The notes beneath the pieces were generated by a model. That model worked only from the letters and a program-made list of their open reading frames with translations. It did not search any database and was not told the origin of the DNA. From a virus, in the IMG/VR virus record IMGVR_UViG_3300047476_000577, positions 40,247 to 104,246 of that record: a DNA stretch of 64,000 nucleotides. One strand, written 5' to 3'. Positions within the stretch are counted from its first letter, which is position 1; every line of letters starts with the position of its first letter. Below are positions 54,976-63,161 of this stretch, piece by piece. Made by a program: the position numbers and the translations under genes.

Positions 54976-55058
54976 AACAGGATAGTTGGTGCCATTTTTA
55001 TTTTAGTCTGACAGCGAACAGACAGCCATTATGTAGTAATTGCTGAACCTATCCTAAA
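54976..55058 (-). ncRNA. CAGCA-handle RNA 4
   Basis: GGATAG-GTTCAGCAA ... CTATCC-TG; cargo hairpin GTCTG/CAGAC. Confidence 0.75.
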
Positions 55059-56567: not shown

Positions 56568-56690
56568 AACTGGTTCGCATTTTTATCCTATCCATTAGAC
56601 GACAGTGGTGACCAACTCCACCGCTGGGATTCGAACCCAGATCTTCTTTGTTCAAAAAAGTTAAAATATAAATTGCTGAAACGAACCGAG
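56568..56690 (-). ncRNA. CAGCA-handle RNA 5: permuted tRNA (YrlA-like)
   Basis: GGTTCG/CGAACC handle; T-arm CTGGG-TTCGAAT-CCCAG, looped acceptor CGGTGG/CCACTG, D-arm. Confidence 0.8.
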
Positions 56691-56699
56691 GTCAAAAAC

Positions 56700-56760
56700 A
56701 ACAGGATGCTTATTTTTCAATTAACAGTTGAATTATTAAATTTGCTGAACGCATCCTAAA
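56700..56760 (-). ncRNA. CAGCA-handle RNA 6 with Asn-GUU anticodon stem-loop
   Basis: GGATGC/GCATCC handle; cargo TTCAA-CTGTTAA-TTGAA. Confidence 0.8.
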
Positions 56761-57938: not shown

Positions 57939-58132
57939 CCACATTACAGTGCATTTTAGGCTGACGCTTGTTAAACACTAGCCGGGATTCGAACCCGTAC
58001 TTTCCGCCACAAGGCGGCTGGTCTTCCGTTAACCTACTAGGACTCCTTAGCGGTGCGCTCGGCAAAGCGGTGCGCTGAGGGACAAGATACAGACCTTCTG
58101 ACGATTGCCGTCATCAGCCTAAAATGCACTGC

Positions 58133-58751: not shown

Positions 58752-58858
58752 AACAGGATGTTGTGTCTAAGCCGGGACTCGAACCCACGACACACCCCCA
58801 GCGGGCCGGCCTCCAGAAGGTTTGGTTGGAGAAAAATTGTTGCTGTAATCATCCTAAA
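58752..58858 (-). ncRNA. CAGCA-handle RNA 7 with T-arm cargo
   Basis: GGATG-ATTACAGCAA ... CATCC-TG; cargo GGG-TTCGAGT-CCC inside GTGTC/GACAC. Confidence 0.75.
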
Positions 58859-58861
58859 ATT

Positions 58862-58939
58862 TGGTGGACTGTAGCAGAGTCGAACTGCCGCCCGAATAGA
58901 GTTACTATCCGCTGTTAGCCATTTACACAGTCACAGCCC
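58862..58939 (-). ncRNA. Anticodon-less tRNA-like RNA with G3-U70 (tmRNA TLD-like)
   Basis: GGGCTGT/ACAGTCC-A-CCA; 7-bp stem with 5-nt loop in place of the anticodon arm. Confidence 0.7.
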
Positions 58940-58945
58940 ATATTG

Positions 58946-59383: not shown

Positions 59384-59740
59384 TTATCTCTTTTTATTGC
59401 CCCACGTAGGCGTTTGCCTGTGACAGTTAGGGCAAAGTAATCTCAAATTGCTAGGAAAGTTATTTGTATTGTTCCCATCAATGTGATCTAAATCTAACGA
59501 AATTTTTTCACCCAACCAGTTAGTTAACCCGCAACAACTACACTTGTAGCCGTCGCGTTCCGATACATATCTAATTAACAGTGGTAAACTAGTTTTTGTT
59601 AGTTTGCCTTCTTCTATTTGTAATTTCTTAATATGATTGTATCTGTATTCGTGCATACAGACTGGGCCGCAATATTTGTTACTTTTACTGTGCTGGAATA
59701 ACGATTCCTTTCTACAGTTAATACATTCATAAGTTTTCAT
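59384..59740 (-). CDS. HNH endonuclease
   Basis: CSCC, LDHIDGNNTNN..SNLRLLCPNCH. Confidence 0.92.
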   Translation of the reverse strand: MKTYECINCRKESLFQHSKSNKYCGPVCMHEYRYNHIKKLQIEEGKLTKTSLPLLIRYVSERDGYKCSCCGLTNWLGEKISLDLDHIDGNNTNNFPSNLRLLCPNCHRQTPTWGNKKR

Positions 59741-59788
59741 TGGTAGAATACTCCTTAAGAGTATTTATGCTCTACCGGGCATTATTTG

Positions 59789-59905
59789 TGGAGCCGCCGG
59801 AGGGACTCGAACCCCCATCACTTCCTTCGAATGGAAAAATGAATTGCTGCACGTATCCTTAACAGGATCACCTTTTAAGTGTCCTAACCATTAGACGACA
59901 GCGGC
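59789..59905 (-). ncRNA. CAGCA-handle RNA 8: CCA-ended tRNA body with the handle in place of the anticodon arm
   Basis: GCCGCTG/CGGCGGC-T-CCA, D- and T-arms; internal GTGATCCTG-TTA-AGGATACGTGCAGCAA. Confidence 0.8.
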
Positions 59906-60061
59906 TTAAAGATTGGGAGCCTAGCTATCTGACGTTACTCAGCCTCACTAGATTGTCTCGAATACAAGAGTTTATACAACCTATTAAGTCTACTGCCGTG
60001 TCACACACCAGCCCAGTGTGCTAGACTTAAAGGGACTCATCGTACCGTCTATCCCGTTAAC

Positions 60062-60324: not shown

Positions 60325-60399
60325 TGGCCGGCCCTGCAGGAATCGAACCCACATCTCGAAGTTCGAAGCATCGCATTCTATCCATTGAACTAAGAGCCG
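60325..60399 (-). tRNA. tRNA-Arg(UCG)
   Basis: Cloverleaf, CCA. Confidence 0.88.
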
Positions 60400-62476: not shown

Positions 62477-62543
62477 AACAGGATGCTTTTTTACGGGTTT
62501 GATTAAAAGTCAAATGTATAAAGTTTGCTGAACGCATCCTAAA
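62477..62543 (-). ncRNA. CAGCA-handle RNA 9 with Lys-UUU anticodon stem-loop
   Basis: GGATGC/GCATCC handle; cargo TTTGA-CTTTTAA-TCAAA. Confidence 0.8.
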
Positions 62544-63069: not shown

Positions 63070-63161
63070 TGGCGGGGAGATAGTAGAATCGAACTCTAAG
63101 CTGCTCATCACAACTCCATCGGTTTTCAAGACCGTGCCAGACCCAGTCTGGATAACTCCCC
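63070..63161 (-). tRNA. tRNA-Ser(UGA)
   Basis: Long variable arm, G73, CCA. Confidence 0.88.

What the first reader, a model, noticed from the sequence alone, without database searches (positions are those of the whole stretch)
59789..59905. Inverse permutation: a CCA-ended tRNA whose anticodon arm is the handle
Seen: normal 5'/3' ends (G1-C72, C2-G71, U73, CCA), with the handle's two strands in swapped order joined by a TTA loop and CAGCAA intact. It is the circular permutation of RNAs 3 and 5, showing the handle does not need RNA termini. Inference: a potentially aminoacylatable (Gly-like acceptor) protein-tethered tRNA, and a possible evolutionary link between tRNA and Y-like RNA.
Basis: partly seen in the sequence, partly recalled or inferred. 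Interest (0 to 1): 0.8.

Follow-up and report, generated by a model that had tools for sequence, protein, structure and literature searches.

The report
tRNA carrying a Ro60-type protein handle
A giant phage encodes a complete, CCA-ended tRNA look-alike with an extra side arm in its anticodon stem; that arm is the docking motif shared by small RNAs that accompany a Ro60-shaped phage protein, so it is probably that protein's partner RNA rather than a working or intron-bearing tRNA, although binding and splicing are untested.

Summary
Window 59905..59789 (minus strand) is a 117-nt RNA gene with a 7-bp acceptor stem, U73, an encoded CCA and normal D and T arms (Rfam tRNA 41.9 bits). It carries the array's "handle" with its two strands in swapped order, closed by a GUUA loop, and CAGCAA is intact. 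After circular permutation it aligns collinearly with the window's sealed-acceptor handle RNAs (z 12.4 and 5.4).

One correction: the handle does not replace the anticodon arm. It is a 42-nt side branch in the 5' strand of a complete anticodon arm (loop AUUCGAA, triplet UCG). In 42 distinct relatives, nucleotides 27-29 before the insert covary with 41-43 after it.

Relatives occur in named phages; GenBank calls the KVP40 and Ci1 copies "tRNA-Pseudo". The DUF2828/DUF7788 protein folds like Ro60. All seven contigs at least 50% complete that carry such an RNA also encode this protein.

The anticodon triplet varies widely on conserved bodies, 12 of 42 loops have 8 nt, and the triplet usually duplicates an ordinary tRNA of the same phage.

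Best reading: an unspliced, tRNA-shaped Y-RNA-like partner. Binding, charging and splicing are untested. This scan found the same RNA-protein system earlier on much other DNA. I rate it a new variant of a known kind.

The parts
59789..59905 (-). Whole 117-nt tRNA-shaped RNA gene. RNA position p corresponds to window coordinate 59906-p.
   Evidence: Rfam tRNA 41.9 bits; own model R1 126.3 bits; no ARAGORN call.
59899..59905 (-). Acceptor stem, 5' strand (RNA 1-7).
   Evidence: Pairs with 59793-59799. All 7 pairs covary in 42 relatives and 99.3% of cells are paired.
59789..59799 (-). Acceptor stem 3' strand (RNA 107-113), discriminator U114 and encoded CCA (115-117).
   Evidence: Read. 37 of 42 relatives end in NCCA. 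40 of 41 ordinary tRNAs of the window also end in CCA.
59881..59896 (-). D arm (RNA 10-25), with A14 and the GG of the D loop.
   Evidence: A14 is kept in 42/42 and the two G in 41/41 and 41/42 relatives. The D stem is 97% paired.
59877..59879 (-). Anticodon-stem 5' strand, outer part (tRNA positions 27-29, CUU), lying before the insert.
   Evidence: Pairs with 59821-59823. Pair 27-43 is paired in 42/42 relatives with four pair types. Pair 28-42 shows UA, CG, GC, AU and UG.
59872..59876 (-). A-rich strand AAAAG (RNA 30-34) leading into the handle.
   Evidence: A30 is kept in 41/42 and A32 in 39/42 relatives, and these positions were not part of the search pattern. The same A-rich run precedes the 3' handle strand of the stand-alone handle RNAs.
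59853..59871 (-). Permuted handle hairpin (RNA 35-53): GU, bulged G, AUCCU, loop GUUA, AGGAU, AC.
   Evidence: The stem sequence changes with compensation in relatives found independently of the pattern: AUACU/AGUAU, AUUCU/AGAAU, AAACU/AGUUU, AAGUCU/AGAUUU. The loop is mostly G-N-N-A.
59844..59852 (-). Handle motif GUG-CAGCAA (RNA 54-62).
   Evidence: Same position and sequence class as UNCAGCAA after the 5' stem strand of RNAs at 55055, 56757, 58855 and 62540.
59835..59843 (-). U-rich linker (RNA 63-71). Its last three U offer an alternative inner pairing to 83-85.
   Evidence: For this sequence the inner continuous stem is -32.1 kcal/mol and the split stem -26.8. Across relatives the inner alternative does not covary.
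59824..59834 (-). Inner anticodon stem CC/GG (tRNA 30-31/39-40) with the 7-nt loop AUUCGAA. The UCG triplet is at 59828-59830.
   Evidence: Family counts: C-G and C-G nearly invariant, A32 36/42, U33 33/42, A37 40/41, A38 41/41. The three middle positions carry 1.5-1.8 bits of entropy.
59821..59823 (-). Anticodon-stem 3' strand, outer part (tRNA 41-43, AAG).
   Evidence: Covaries with 59877-59879.
59800..59820 (-). Variable loop UGAU (RNA 86-89) and T arm GGGGG-UUCGAGU-CCCUC (RNA 90-106).
   Evidence: In the T loop, U54 and U55 are kept in 42/42 and C56 and A58 in 41/42. The T stem covaries and is 98% paired.
47271..48689 (-). Gene of the Ro60-fold protein (DUF2828 + DUF7788), the presumed partner, 11 kb downstream on the same strand.
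   Evidence: Pfam E-values 1.9e-28 and 1.1e-51. AlphaFold2 model with a 141-sequence alignment has pLDDT 94.3. The 13 best PDB matches are all Ro60/TROVE, E about 4e-8, TM 0.5-0.64.
56568..56690 (-). Sibling RNA5: the same D and T arms, a sealed acceptor and the handle at the termini. This is the opposite topology.
   Evidence: Collinear with the permuted target, z 12.4; fold.
49294..49425 (-). Sibling RNA3: a YrlA-like sealed-acceptor tRNA mimic with the handle at the termini.
   Evidence: permuted alignment z 5.4.

Best explanation
The gene encodes a complete tRNA-shaped RNA: acceptor stem, D arm, 5-bp anticodon stem, 7-nt loop, T arm and encoded CCA. A 42-nt module branches from the 5' strand of its anticodon stem, between tRNA positions 29 and 30. 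The module is a loop-closed, circularly permuted copy of the 'handle' (short covarying stem, then UNCAGCAA, with an A-rich opposite strand). That handle joins the 5' and 3' ends of at least five other small RNAs in the same tRNA array and travels with a Ro60-fold DUF2828/DUF7788 protein. I propose the following. The RNA is transcribed with the array and its ends are matured like those of any tRNA. It stays unspliced, and the side arm docks the Ro60-like ring. The particle then presents a whole tRNA with an exposed, canonical but fast-changing anticodon loop to some factor that reads tRNAs. That factor would most plausibly be a host tRNA-directed defence or repair enzyme, so the RNA would act as a Y-RNA-like tether or bait. 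Shown here: the sequence, the covariation-supported structure, recurrence in many phages, co-occurrence with the protein gene, and the protein's fold. Inferred: protein binding, end processing, absence of splicing, and the identity of the third party.
For: 1) Structure. Model R1, built from 4 sequences, finds relatives at 59-126 bits while ordinary tRNAs score 53 bits or less. On 42 distinct sequences 96.3% of cells pair and 20 of 28 pairs change on both sides; 0 of 500 shuffles reach this. 2) The split anticodon stem covaries. Pair 27-43 shows CG 22, AU 8, UA 8, UG 4. Pair 28-42 shows UA 17, CG 8, GC 5, AU 2, UG 1. The inner alternative does not covary. 3) The same module sits at the termini of sibling RNAs, and the permuted alignment gives z 12.4 and 5.4. 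4) The partner protein has the Ro60 fold; a profile search of PDB sequences also ranks TROVE/Ro60 first, at weak E-values of 0.02-0.08. 5) Co-occurrence. 30 of 46 contigs with the motif encode the protein, including 7 of 7 contigs at least 50% complete and 4 of 4 at least 90% complete. In APT65 three such RNAs lie around this gene, two upstream and one just downstream. In Ci1 two lie just downstream of it behind their own promoter-like site. 6) Evidence against a decoding role. There are 11 different triplets among the 28 seven-nt loops, and 12 of 42 loops have 8 nt. L119 and L090 have identical bodies but loops AUGUCAA and ACUCUAAA. In 10 of 16 phages checked an ordinary tRNA with the same anticodon lies in the same stretch, including tRNA-Arg(UCG) at 60325-60399 here. 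7) Some sibling handle-tRNAs (APT65 no. 2 and 3, KVP40 Pseudo-5) keep a 5-bp anticodon stem but have no anticodon loop at all. 8) Literature. Y RNAs of Ro60 mimic tRNA, and M. smegmatis YrlA is cut by RNase P and gains CCA in vivo (PMC4201824). The Ro60-like gp130 of phage Bas63 counters the Ppl defence, and its authors guessed that neighbouring 'tRNA genes' might be Y RNAs (bioRxiv 10.1101/2024.10.10.617714).
Against: Here the protein gene lies 11 kb from the RNA. Only 5 of 80 protein-centred loci hold such an RNA within 10 kb. Removing the insert leaves a flawless anticodon arm (CUUCC-AUUCGAA-GGAAG) with U33 and A37, as an intron-bearing tRNA gene would, and 28 of 42 relatives keep a canonical 7-nt loop. 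Thirty-seven of the 42 aligned sequences come from loci fetched with a pattern that fixes the handle core, so its invariance in that set is partly ascertainment. The handle motif differs from the known Ro60-binding motif of YrlA (GNCGAAN0-1G). The bait or decoy role rests only on loop variability and on one anti-defence phenotype of a distant homologue.
Confidence: 0.6

Rival explanations
1. An intron-bearing tRNA-Arg(UCG) gene. The 42-nt handle module would be an intervening sequence recognised by phage or host proteins, cut out and religated to give an ordinary decoding tRNA.
For: Deleting RNA 30-71 gives a perfect 5-bp stem and a 7-nt loop with U33 and A37. The stem halves flanking the insert covary. 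CCA is encoded. 28 of 42 relatives have canonical loops. Bacterial Ro60 genes sit with the RtcB ligase in some operons (PMC7790460).
Against: I know of no 40-nt protein-spliced intron in bacterial or phage tRNA (own knowledge). By eye there is no bulge-helix-bulge at the junctions, and the A30-33/U68-71 pairing seen here is not kept in the family. No ribozyme or intron family matches at E up to 10. 12 of 42 products would have 8-nt loops and some would have C33 or C37. The product would duplicate an ordinary tRNA in 10 of 16 phages. Sibling RNAs with the same insert have no anticodon loop to restore. The same module closes the ends of RNAs that cannot be spliced into anything.
Confidence: 0.15
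2. A working, aminoacylated tRNA that keeps the extra arm. The arm would recruit the Ro60-like protein to protect or mark this tRNA, for example by shielding the anticodon loop from host anticodon nucleases.
For: All universal tRNA tertiary positions are kept: U8, A14, G18, G19, U54, U55, C56, A58. CCA is encoded in 37 of 42 relatives. A subgroup has G3.U70 with A73, the alanine identity set (the identity rule is own knowledge).
Against: A 42-nt branch at base pairs 29-41/30-40 lies where the 30S P site contacts the anticodon stem (own knowledge), so decoding with the arm in place is unlikely. The triplet is not conserved on conserved bodies. The discriminator varies: A 27, G 10, C 3, U 2.
Confidence: 0.1
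3. A two-piece tRNA. The GNNA loop of the handle would be cleaved after transcription, recreating the terminal handle (5' AG..., ...CUGUU 3') and giving two halves held together by the stems.
For: The loop sits exactly where the sibling RNAs have their termini, and the G after CU is kept in 41 of 41 relatives. M. smegmatis YrlA does exist as two pieces after RNase P cleavage (PMC4201824).
Against: No nuclease or cleavage signal is known. A closed tetraloop-like G-N-N-A suggests a stable cap rather than a cleavage site.
Confidence: 0.07
4. A non-functional chimera or pseudo-tRNA made by recombination between a handle RNA and a tRNA gene, as the GenBank label 'tRNA-Pseudo' implies.
For: tRNAscan-based annotations call the KVP40 and Ci1 relatives pseudogenes. 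An HNH-like ORF lies directly downstream.
Against: There are 42 distinct sequences with compensatory changes in every helix, and the design is conserved across unrelated phage groups.
Confidence: 0.03

Closest known systems
YrlA-type bacterial and mycobacteriophage Y RNAs bound by Ro60/Rsr (Rfam RF02553; Chen et al. 2014, PMC4201824)
   Same: A tRNA-mimicking RNA joined to a protein-binding helix and encoded with a Ro60-fold TROVE+vWA protein. M. smegmatis YrlA is even opened by RNase P and receives CCA in vivo.
   Different: In YrlA the Ro60-binding stem is formed by the RNA termini, the acceptor is sealed in the gene and there is no anticodon loop. Here the termini are the acceptor end, CCA is encoded, the binding module is an internal hairpin and a full anticodon loop is kept. 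The motif is UNCAGCAA, not GNCGAAN0-1G. The protein belongs to the DUF2828/DUF7788 branch. The Rfam YrlA model gives no hit at E up to 10.
Class I RNAs of Dictyostelium (Rfam RF01414; PMC7919456)
   Same: These have a short covarying stem joining the 5' and 3' ends, an 11-nt motif ending in ACAGCAA right after the 5' strand, a conserved 5' G pairing with the C of a 3' CUGU, and a variable body. This is the design of the stand-alone handle RNAs of this window. One of them (56756..56702) matches RF01414 over its full length at 28.3 bits, E 5e-4.
   Different: The score is below Rfam's gathering score of 41.5. Class I RNAs are reported only from dictyostelids, and Rnp1A/CIBP is their known direct binder. 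In the target the module is permuted and embedded in a tRNA, so the model cannot match it.
'tRNA-Pseudo' genes annotated in vibriophage KVP40 (AY283928: Pseudo-3, -4, -5) and Citrobacter phage Ci1 (tRNA-Pseudo-AAC)
   Same: The same class of RNA: 113-124-nt tRNA-shaped genes with the handle hairpin and (C/U)(A/U)GCA motif in the anticodon arm, in genomes that encode DUF2828.
   Different: They are only labelled pseudogenes. Neither the records nor the papers I could read offer a structure, a partner or a function. In some the handle replaces the whole anticodon loop.
Thermus phage phiLo Ro60 with Yrl1/Yrl2 (PDB 9KOP, 9L5Y; PMC12135203)
   Same: A phage-encoded Ro60-fold protein that binds phage-encoded small RNAs. 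It is a top structural match of the window's protein.
   Different: Its RNAs are classical stem-bulge-stem Y RNAs with a CGAA motif and are not tRNA-shaped. The protein is of the canonical TROVE type.
Circularly permuted tRNA-like genes (two-piece tmRNA; permuted tRNA genes of Cyanidioschyzon) - own knowledge
   Same: They show that tRNA-like RNAs tolerate relocation of their termini.
   Different: In those cases the tRNA part is permuted. Here the tRNA order is normal and the attached protein-binding module is the part that is permuted relative to its siblings.
Intron-containing tRNA genes (archaeal bulge-helix-bulge, bacterial group I) - own knowledge
   Same: An insert interrupts the anticodon arm, and its removal would restore a normal arm.
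   Different: The insert lies in the stem between positions 29 and 30. There is no bulge-helix-bulge and the insert is far too short for a group I intron. It is a conserved module also used outside tRNAs.

Membership tests
tRNA (Rfam RF00005) | The covariance model score reaches the gathering score. | tested here: met
   41.9 bits against 29, all model positions 1-71 matched, with 53 nt skipped in the anticodon arm.
tRNA (Rfam RF00005) | Universal tertiary-interaction nucleotides and a 7-bp acceptor, 4-bp D and 5-bp T stem. | tested here: met
   U8, A14, G18, G19, U54, U55, C56 and A58 are present here and kept in 41-42 of 42 relatives. The stems covary.
tRNA (Rfam RF00005) | A contiguous 17-nt anticodon arm. 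| tested here: not met
   A 42-nt module interrupts the 5' strand of the stem. ARAGORN gives no call.
tRNA (Rfam RF00005) | It is aminoacylated and decodes. | not testable with these tools
   Indirect evidence argues against it: variable triplets, 8-nt loops in 12 of 42, and redundancy with ordinary tRNAs.
YrlA / Y RNA (Rfam RF02553, RF00019) | The family covariance model matches. | tested here: not met
   No Y RNA or YrlA hit at gathering score in the window, nor at E up to 10 on 59700-60000.
YrlA / Y RNA (Rfam RF02553, RF00019) | The Ro60-binding helix is formed by the 5' and 3' termini and carries the GNCGAAN0-1G (CGAA) motif (PMC4201824). | tested here: not met
   The helix is internal and loop-closed, and the motif is GUGCAGCAA.
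YrlA / Y RNA (Rfam RF02553, RF00019) | A tRNA-like domain with D arm, T arm and acceptor. | tested here: met
YrlA / Y RNA (Rfam RF02553, RF00019) | It is encoded with, and bound by, a Ro60 orthologue. | tested here: inconclusive
   A Ro60-fold protein is encoded on the same strand 11 kb away. Co-occurrence is 7 of 7 in contigs at least 50% complete. Binding was not tested.
Dictyostelium Class I RNA (Rfam RF01414) | A terminal stem, an 11-nt motif ending in ACAGCAA and a 3' CUGU, with a model score at or above 41.5 bits. | tested here: not met
   The target has the motif but not the terminal stem. A stand-alone sibling reaches 28.3 bits, E 5e-4, below the gathering score.
Intron-containing tRNA | A recognisable splicing signal (bulge-helix-bulge, or a group I core). 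| tested here: not met
   No intron or ribozyme family matches at E up to 10. The junction pairing is not conserved. The bulge-helix-bulge check was by eye only.
Intron-containing tRNA | A spliced mature RNA exists. | not testable with these tools
Ro60 / TROVE + vWA proteins (for the partner protein) | A HEAT-repeat ring plus a vWA domain with MIDAS, and full-length structural similarity to solved Ro60. | tested here: met
   Model pLDDT 94.3. Foldseek ranks 1-13 are all Ro60/TROVE chains, about 500-570 aligned columns, probability 1.0. The DxSxS motif is invariant (D280, S282, S284).

The most novel reading that the evidence does not exclude
These RNAs are real, possibly chargeable tRNAs permanently fitted with a docking arm for a Ro60-like ring. 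Their anticodon loops are under diversifying selection because the particle serves as bait, sponge or sensor for host enzymes that cut or modify specific anticodon loops. The same handle-protein pair would also be the unrecognised basis of the 'orphan' Class I RNAs of Dictyostelium. One uncharacterised protein, DDB_G0281243, was pulled down with a Class I RNA. Together these would define a new RNP family spanning phages, giant viruses, bacteria and eukaryotes.
Probability: 0.2. Interest if true: 0.85.

Novelty: new variant of a known kind. Interest (0 to 1): 0.6.

Why it matters
Tethering of Ro60 to partners by Y RNAs, and tRNA mimicry by YrlA, are established. A genomically encoded, CCA-ended full tRNA with a Ro60-type docking arm in its anticodon stem is in no paper or Rfam family I could search. 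Its relatives have stood in GenBank since 2003 labelled as pseudo-tRNAs.

If the RNA is bound as proposed, three things follow.

- It would explain a recurrent class of 'pseudo-tRNA' genes in T4-like and jumbo phages.
- It would show that the DUF2828 branch of Ro60 recognises a portable module that works at RNA ends or inside an RNA.
- Through the fast-changing anticodon loops, it would point to a conflict with host factors that read anticodon loops. This fits the one known phenotype of a homologue, Bas63 gp130, which counters the Ppl defence.

The resemblance of the handle to Dictyostelium Class I RNAs also gives a testable lead on RNAs whose function has been open for 20 years.

Tried and rejected
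- The unconstrained minimum-free-energy fold of the 117 nt gives a non-cloverleaf structure with z -0.8. It is uninformative, as is usual for tRNAs. A fold with the three tRNA arms enforced is as stable (-34.2 against -34.3 kcal/mol).
- AlphaFold2 without an alignment gave pLDDT 45.8 and was discarded.
- phmmer of the protein against PDB sequences gave nothing. The profile search gave only weak TROVE/Ro60 hits. The fold search settled the question.
- The KVP40 genome paper (PMC180978) is not held.
- The protein Atlas returned only phage DUF2828 clusters and said nothing about eukaryotic members.
- No paper other than the Class I preprint names DDB_G0281243.
- No sigma-70-like promoter lies next to the gene, so an independent transcription unit is unsupported. 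The 156-nt spacer upstream has no significant fold.
- The idea that the A30-33/U68-71 pairing forms a splice-site helix was rejected, because the U run is not conserved.
- The 'Gly-like acceptor' was rejected as a family trait.
Full report
CONTEXT. The window is the last 64 kb of a 104-kb IMG/VR virus record estimated to be 29% complete, which indicates a jumbo phage. From 49 to 63.5 kb the minus strand carries about 42 tRNA genes. At 47271-48689, on the same strand, lies a 472-aa ORF with Pfam DUF2828 and DUF7788.

THE OBSERVATION. Read on the minus strand, 59905..59789 is 117 nt long.
- The acceptor stem has 7 pairs: G1-C72, C2-G71, C3-G70, G4-C69, C5-G68, U6.G67 and G7-C66.
- It has U8, a D arm GUCU/GGAC with A14 and GG, and a T arm GGGGG-UUCGAGU-CCCUC.
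- The discriminator is U, followed by an encoded CCA.

Rfam's tRNA model scores it 41.9 bits (gathering score 29) while skipping 53 nt in the anticodon arm. ARAGORN does not call it. Inside the skipped stretch stands AUCCU-GUUA-AGGAU, followed by AC-GUG-CAGCAA.

Elsewhere in the array the same elements occur in the other order. AGGAUnnn-UnCAGCAA lies at the 5' end and nnnAUCCU-GUU at the 3' end of small RNAs at 49425..49294, 55055..54976, 56757..56700, 58855..58752 and 62540..62477. The 5' pattern occurs 8 times against 0.36 expected, and the 3' pattern 9 times against 2.05. The stem between the fixed AG...CU changes with compensation from copy to copy.

I cut the target at the handle loop and joined it at the acceptor. 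It then aligns collinearly with RNA5 (56690..56568) at z 12.4, against 2.3 unpermuted, and with RNA3 (49425..49297) at z 5.4, against -0.3. RNA5 shares the target's D arm and has a sealed acceptor.

After CAGCAA and a U-rich linker comes CC-AUUCGAA-GG, followed by AAG. The three nucleotides after position 26 (CUU) can pair with that AAG. Together these give a normal 5-bp anticodon stem (CUU+CC with GG+AAG) and a 7-nt loop with U33, triplet UCG, A37 and A38. The 42 nt from AAAAG to the U run form a branch between tRNA positions 29 and 30. For this one sequence, an alternative in which the last U's of the linker pair with AAG is more stable by the nearest-neighbour model (-32.1 against -26.8 kcal/mol). 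A fold with the three tRNA arms enforced is as stable as the unconstrained optimum.

RELATIVES AND COVARIATION. A blastn search of phage records found one match to the RNA itself, in Aeromonas phage APT65. That phage has three such RNAs and five end-closed handle RNAs around a DUF2828/DUF7788 gene.

I built a covariance model from four sequences (R1). It separated handle-tRNAs from ordinary tRNAs (53 bits or less):
- 75-126 bits in 80 protein-centred IMG/VR loci;
- 59-114 bits in 46 loci fetched with the exact permuted core.

This gave 42 distinct sequences.
- 96.3% of cells pair on the consensus, and 20 of 28 pairs change on both sides.
- No shuffle or slid register comes near this.
- Pair 27-43 is paired in all 42 (CG 22, AU 8, UA 8, UG 4).
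- Pair 28-42 shows UA, CG, GC, AU and UG.

The inner alternative (mostly AUU) does not follow the 3' strand. After allowing for a few misaligned rows, the outer pairing is complete in most sequences. A minority (the L095, L125 and L096 types) fit the inner stem better. The family consensus is therefore a canonical anticodon arm with the handle branching from its 5' strand.

One caveat applies. Thirty-seven of the 42 sequences come from loci fetched with a pattern that fixes the handle core, so the core's invariance in that set is ascertainment. The independently found copies show that the hairpin covaries between a fixed ...CU-G and A-AG...:
- APT65: AUACU/AGUAU;
- L037: AUUCU/AGAAU;
- Ci1: AAACU/AGUUU;
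- KVP40: AUACU/AGUAU and AAGUCU/AGAUUU;
- LAh_8: GAGUCU/AGAUUC.

Positions outside the pattern are also conserved, namely the A-rich strand, the GU before the bulge, and a single bulged U or G.

NAMED PHAGES. R1 finds such RNAs in several named phages:
- Citrobacter phage Ci1: two, behind a TTGACA/TATAAT-like site just downstream of the DUF2828 gene; the second is annotated 'tRNA-Pseudo-AAC';
- KVP40: five; three are annotated tRNA-Pseudo-3, -4 and -5;
- Aeromonas phage LAh_8: two;
- APT65: three.

In some of them (APT65 no. 2 and 3, KVP40 Pseudo-5) a 5-bp anticodon stem encloses only the A-rich strand, the handle and the (C/U)(A/U)GCA motif, with no anticodon loop.

THE PROTEIN. An AlphaFold2 model made with a 141-sequence alignment has pLDDT 94.3. 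Its 13 best PDB matches are all Ro60/TROVE chains, from Xenopus, human, Deinococcus Rsr and Thermus phage phiLo. The alignments are full-length, with E about 4e-8 to 7e-6 and TM 0.5-0.64.

Of the 46 contigs that carry the permuted handle, 30 encode this protein. That includes all 7 contigs at least 50% complete and all 4 at least 90% complete. The rest are fragments.

IS IT A DECODING tRNA? The tertiary-interaction nucleotides of tRNA are kept in 41-42 of 42 sequences. The loop keeps A32, U33, A37 and A38, but the three middle positions are the most variable unpaired columns, at 1.5-1.8 bits.
- Eleven different triplets occur among 28 seven-nt loops.
- Twelve loops have 8 nt and one has 6.
- L119 and L090 have identical bodies but carry AUGUCAA and ACUCUAAA.
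- The discriminator varies (A 27, G 10, C 3, U 2), so the target's U73 is not a family trait.
- In 10 of 16 phages checked, an ordinary tRNA with the same anticodon lies in the same stretch. Here it is tRNA-Arg(UCG) at 60325-60399, and in the L030 phage there are two tRNA-Asp(GUC) genes.

The RNA therefore does not fill a decoding gap. A 42-nt branch at base pairs 29-41/30-40 would also sit where the ribosomal P site grips the anticodon stem (own knowledge). The encoded CCA is simply the rule in this array, since 40 of 41 ordinary tRNAs have it. No promoter-like site flanks the gene. It is thus probably made and trimmed with its neighbours.

SPLICING. Several points argue against splicing:
- no intron or ribozyme family matches;
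- the junctions show no conserved helix;
- the insert is a conserved module that also closes the ends of unrelated small RNAs;
- many 'products' would have non-canonical loops or none.

I could not look at transcripts, so I leave splicing at about 15%.

COMPARISON WITH WHAT IS KNOWN. Bacterial and mycobacteriophage YrlA RNAs join a tRNA-like domain to a Ro60-binding stem formed by the termini. M. smegmatis YrlA is opened by RNase P and receives CCA in vivo (PMC4201824). An open-acceptor, CCA-ended tRNA mimic on Ro60 therefore has a precedent, although as two pieces and with another motif (GNCGAAN0-1G). Thermus phage phiLo Ro60 binds two classical Y-like RNAs (PMC12135203). A review of jumbo phages notes a TROVE protein 'with a tRNA-like partner' only in passing (PMC7824862). 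The PhageMaP preprint shows that the Ro60-like gp130 of Bas63 counters the Ppl defence, and guesses that some neighbouring 'tRNA genes' may be Y RNAs. None of these describes the handle or the handle-tRNA design.

Those RNAs have a short covarying terminal stem, an 11-nt motif ending in ACAGCAA next to the 5' strand, a conserved 5' G pairing with the C of a 3' CUGU, and a variable body. Rfam's Class I model matches the window's stand-alone handle RNA 56756..56702 over its whole length at 28.3 bits, E 5e-4, which is below the gathering score of 41.5. One of four proteins pulled down with a Class I RNA, DDB_G0281243, is uncharacterised. I could not retrieve it.

VERDICT. The feature is real and the topology claim is right, with the correction that the handle is a side arm on a complete anticodon arm. 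The most likely reading (0.6) is an unspliced, tRNA-shaped, Y-RNA-like partner of the phage's Ro60-fold protein. Its role as a tether or bait for anticodon-reading factors is inferred only from loop variability and one homologue's anti-defence phenotype. Earlier notes of this scan describe the same RNA-protein system, including handle-bearing tRNAs, on many other genomes. I tested the points I use here myself.

Noticed in passing
window 58863-58941 (-): A tRNA-shaped element with a 7-bp acceptor, a T arm (GGCAG-UUCGACU-CUGCU) and ACCA, but an odd anticodon-type loop (GUAACUC). It is called neither by ARAGORN nor by Rfam's tRNA model at E up to 1. It lies directly upstream of handle RNA 58855..58752.
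   Followed up: partly
window 57973-58044 (-): ARAGORN reports 'tRNA-???' with a 2-nt anticodon (tg). Rfam tRNA scores it only 33.8 bits. This is another non-canonical tRNA in the array. Similar '???' calls occur in related loci: L126 8446-8530, L122 8471-8541, and L125 5523-5623 with a 4-nt anticodon.
   Followed up: no
window 59384-59740 (-): A 118-aa ORF starts 49 nt after the RNA's CCA, behind an AAGGAG site. It has weak HNH endonuclease matches (E 8e-4 and 4e-3, below the Pfam cut-offs) and may be a homing-type nuclease within the tRNA array.
   Followed up: no
window 63074-63161 (-): Rfam tRNA-Sec model hit at 47.5 bits, exactly at the gathering score (47). ARAGORN does not call it.
   Followed up: no
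window 48670-48735 (-): Just upstream of the Ro60-like ORF's start there is a handle-like string (AGAAUCGAUACAGCAA, one mismatch to the pattern) preceded by CAUCCAGUU. It may be a handle copy in the mRNA leader, which would suggest autoregulation.
   Followed up: no
L125 9199-9320, L096 648-770, L131 723-844, L104 4937-5059, L099 627-749: This subgroup of handle-tRNAs has G1-C72, G2-C71, G3.U70 and A73, the identity set of tRNA-Ala, combined with a UGU triplet or an 8-nt loop. If charged, they would carry alanine whatever the loop, as tmRNA does.
   Followed up: no
L119 9747-9866 versus L090 4994-5113: The two RNAs are identical outside the linker and loop, yet their loops are AUGUCAA (7 nt) and ACUCUAAA (8 nt). 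The change is confined to the anticodon loop.
   Followed up: partly
L030 5614-5703, L053 20102-20196, L119 8760-8851, L095 5078-5169, L112 596-689: A recurrent 90-95-nt tRNA with a UAU anticodon (called Ile) and a long extra arm occurs in these jumbo-phage arrays. This is an unusual type-II-like tRNA for that anticodon.
   Followed up: no
window 56702-56756 (-): This stand-alone handle RNA, which displays an Asn-type loop (CUGUUAA), is the only stretch tested that hits Rfam's Dictyostelium Class I RNA model (28.3 bits, E 5e-4, full length).
   Followed up: partly
window 47271-48689 (-): A database protein 100% identical to this ORF is 462 aa long (P0001), and the Atlas record starts at residue 11. 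The true start codon is therefore probably 10 codons downstream of the ORF's first ATG, at about 48659.
   Followed up: no
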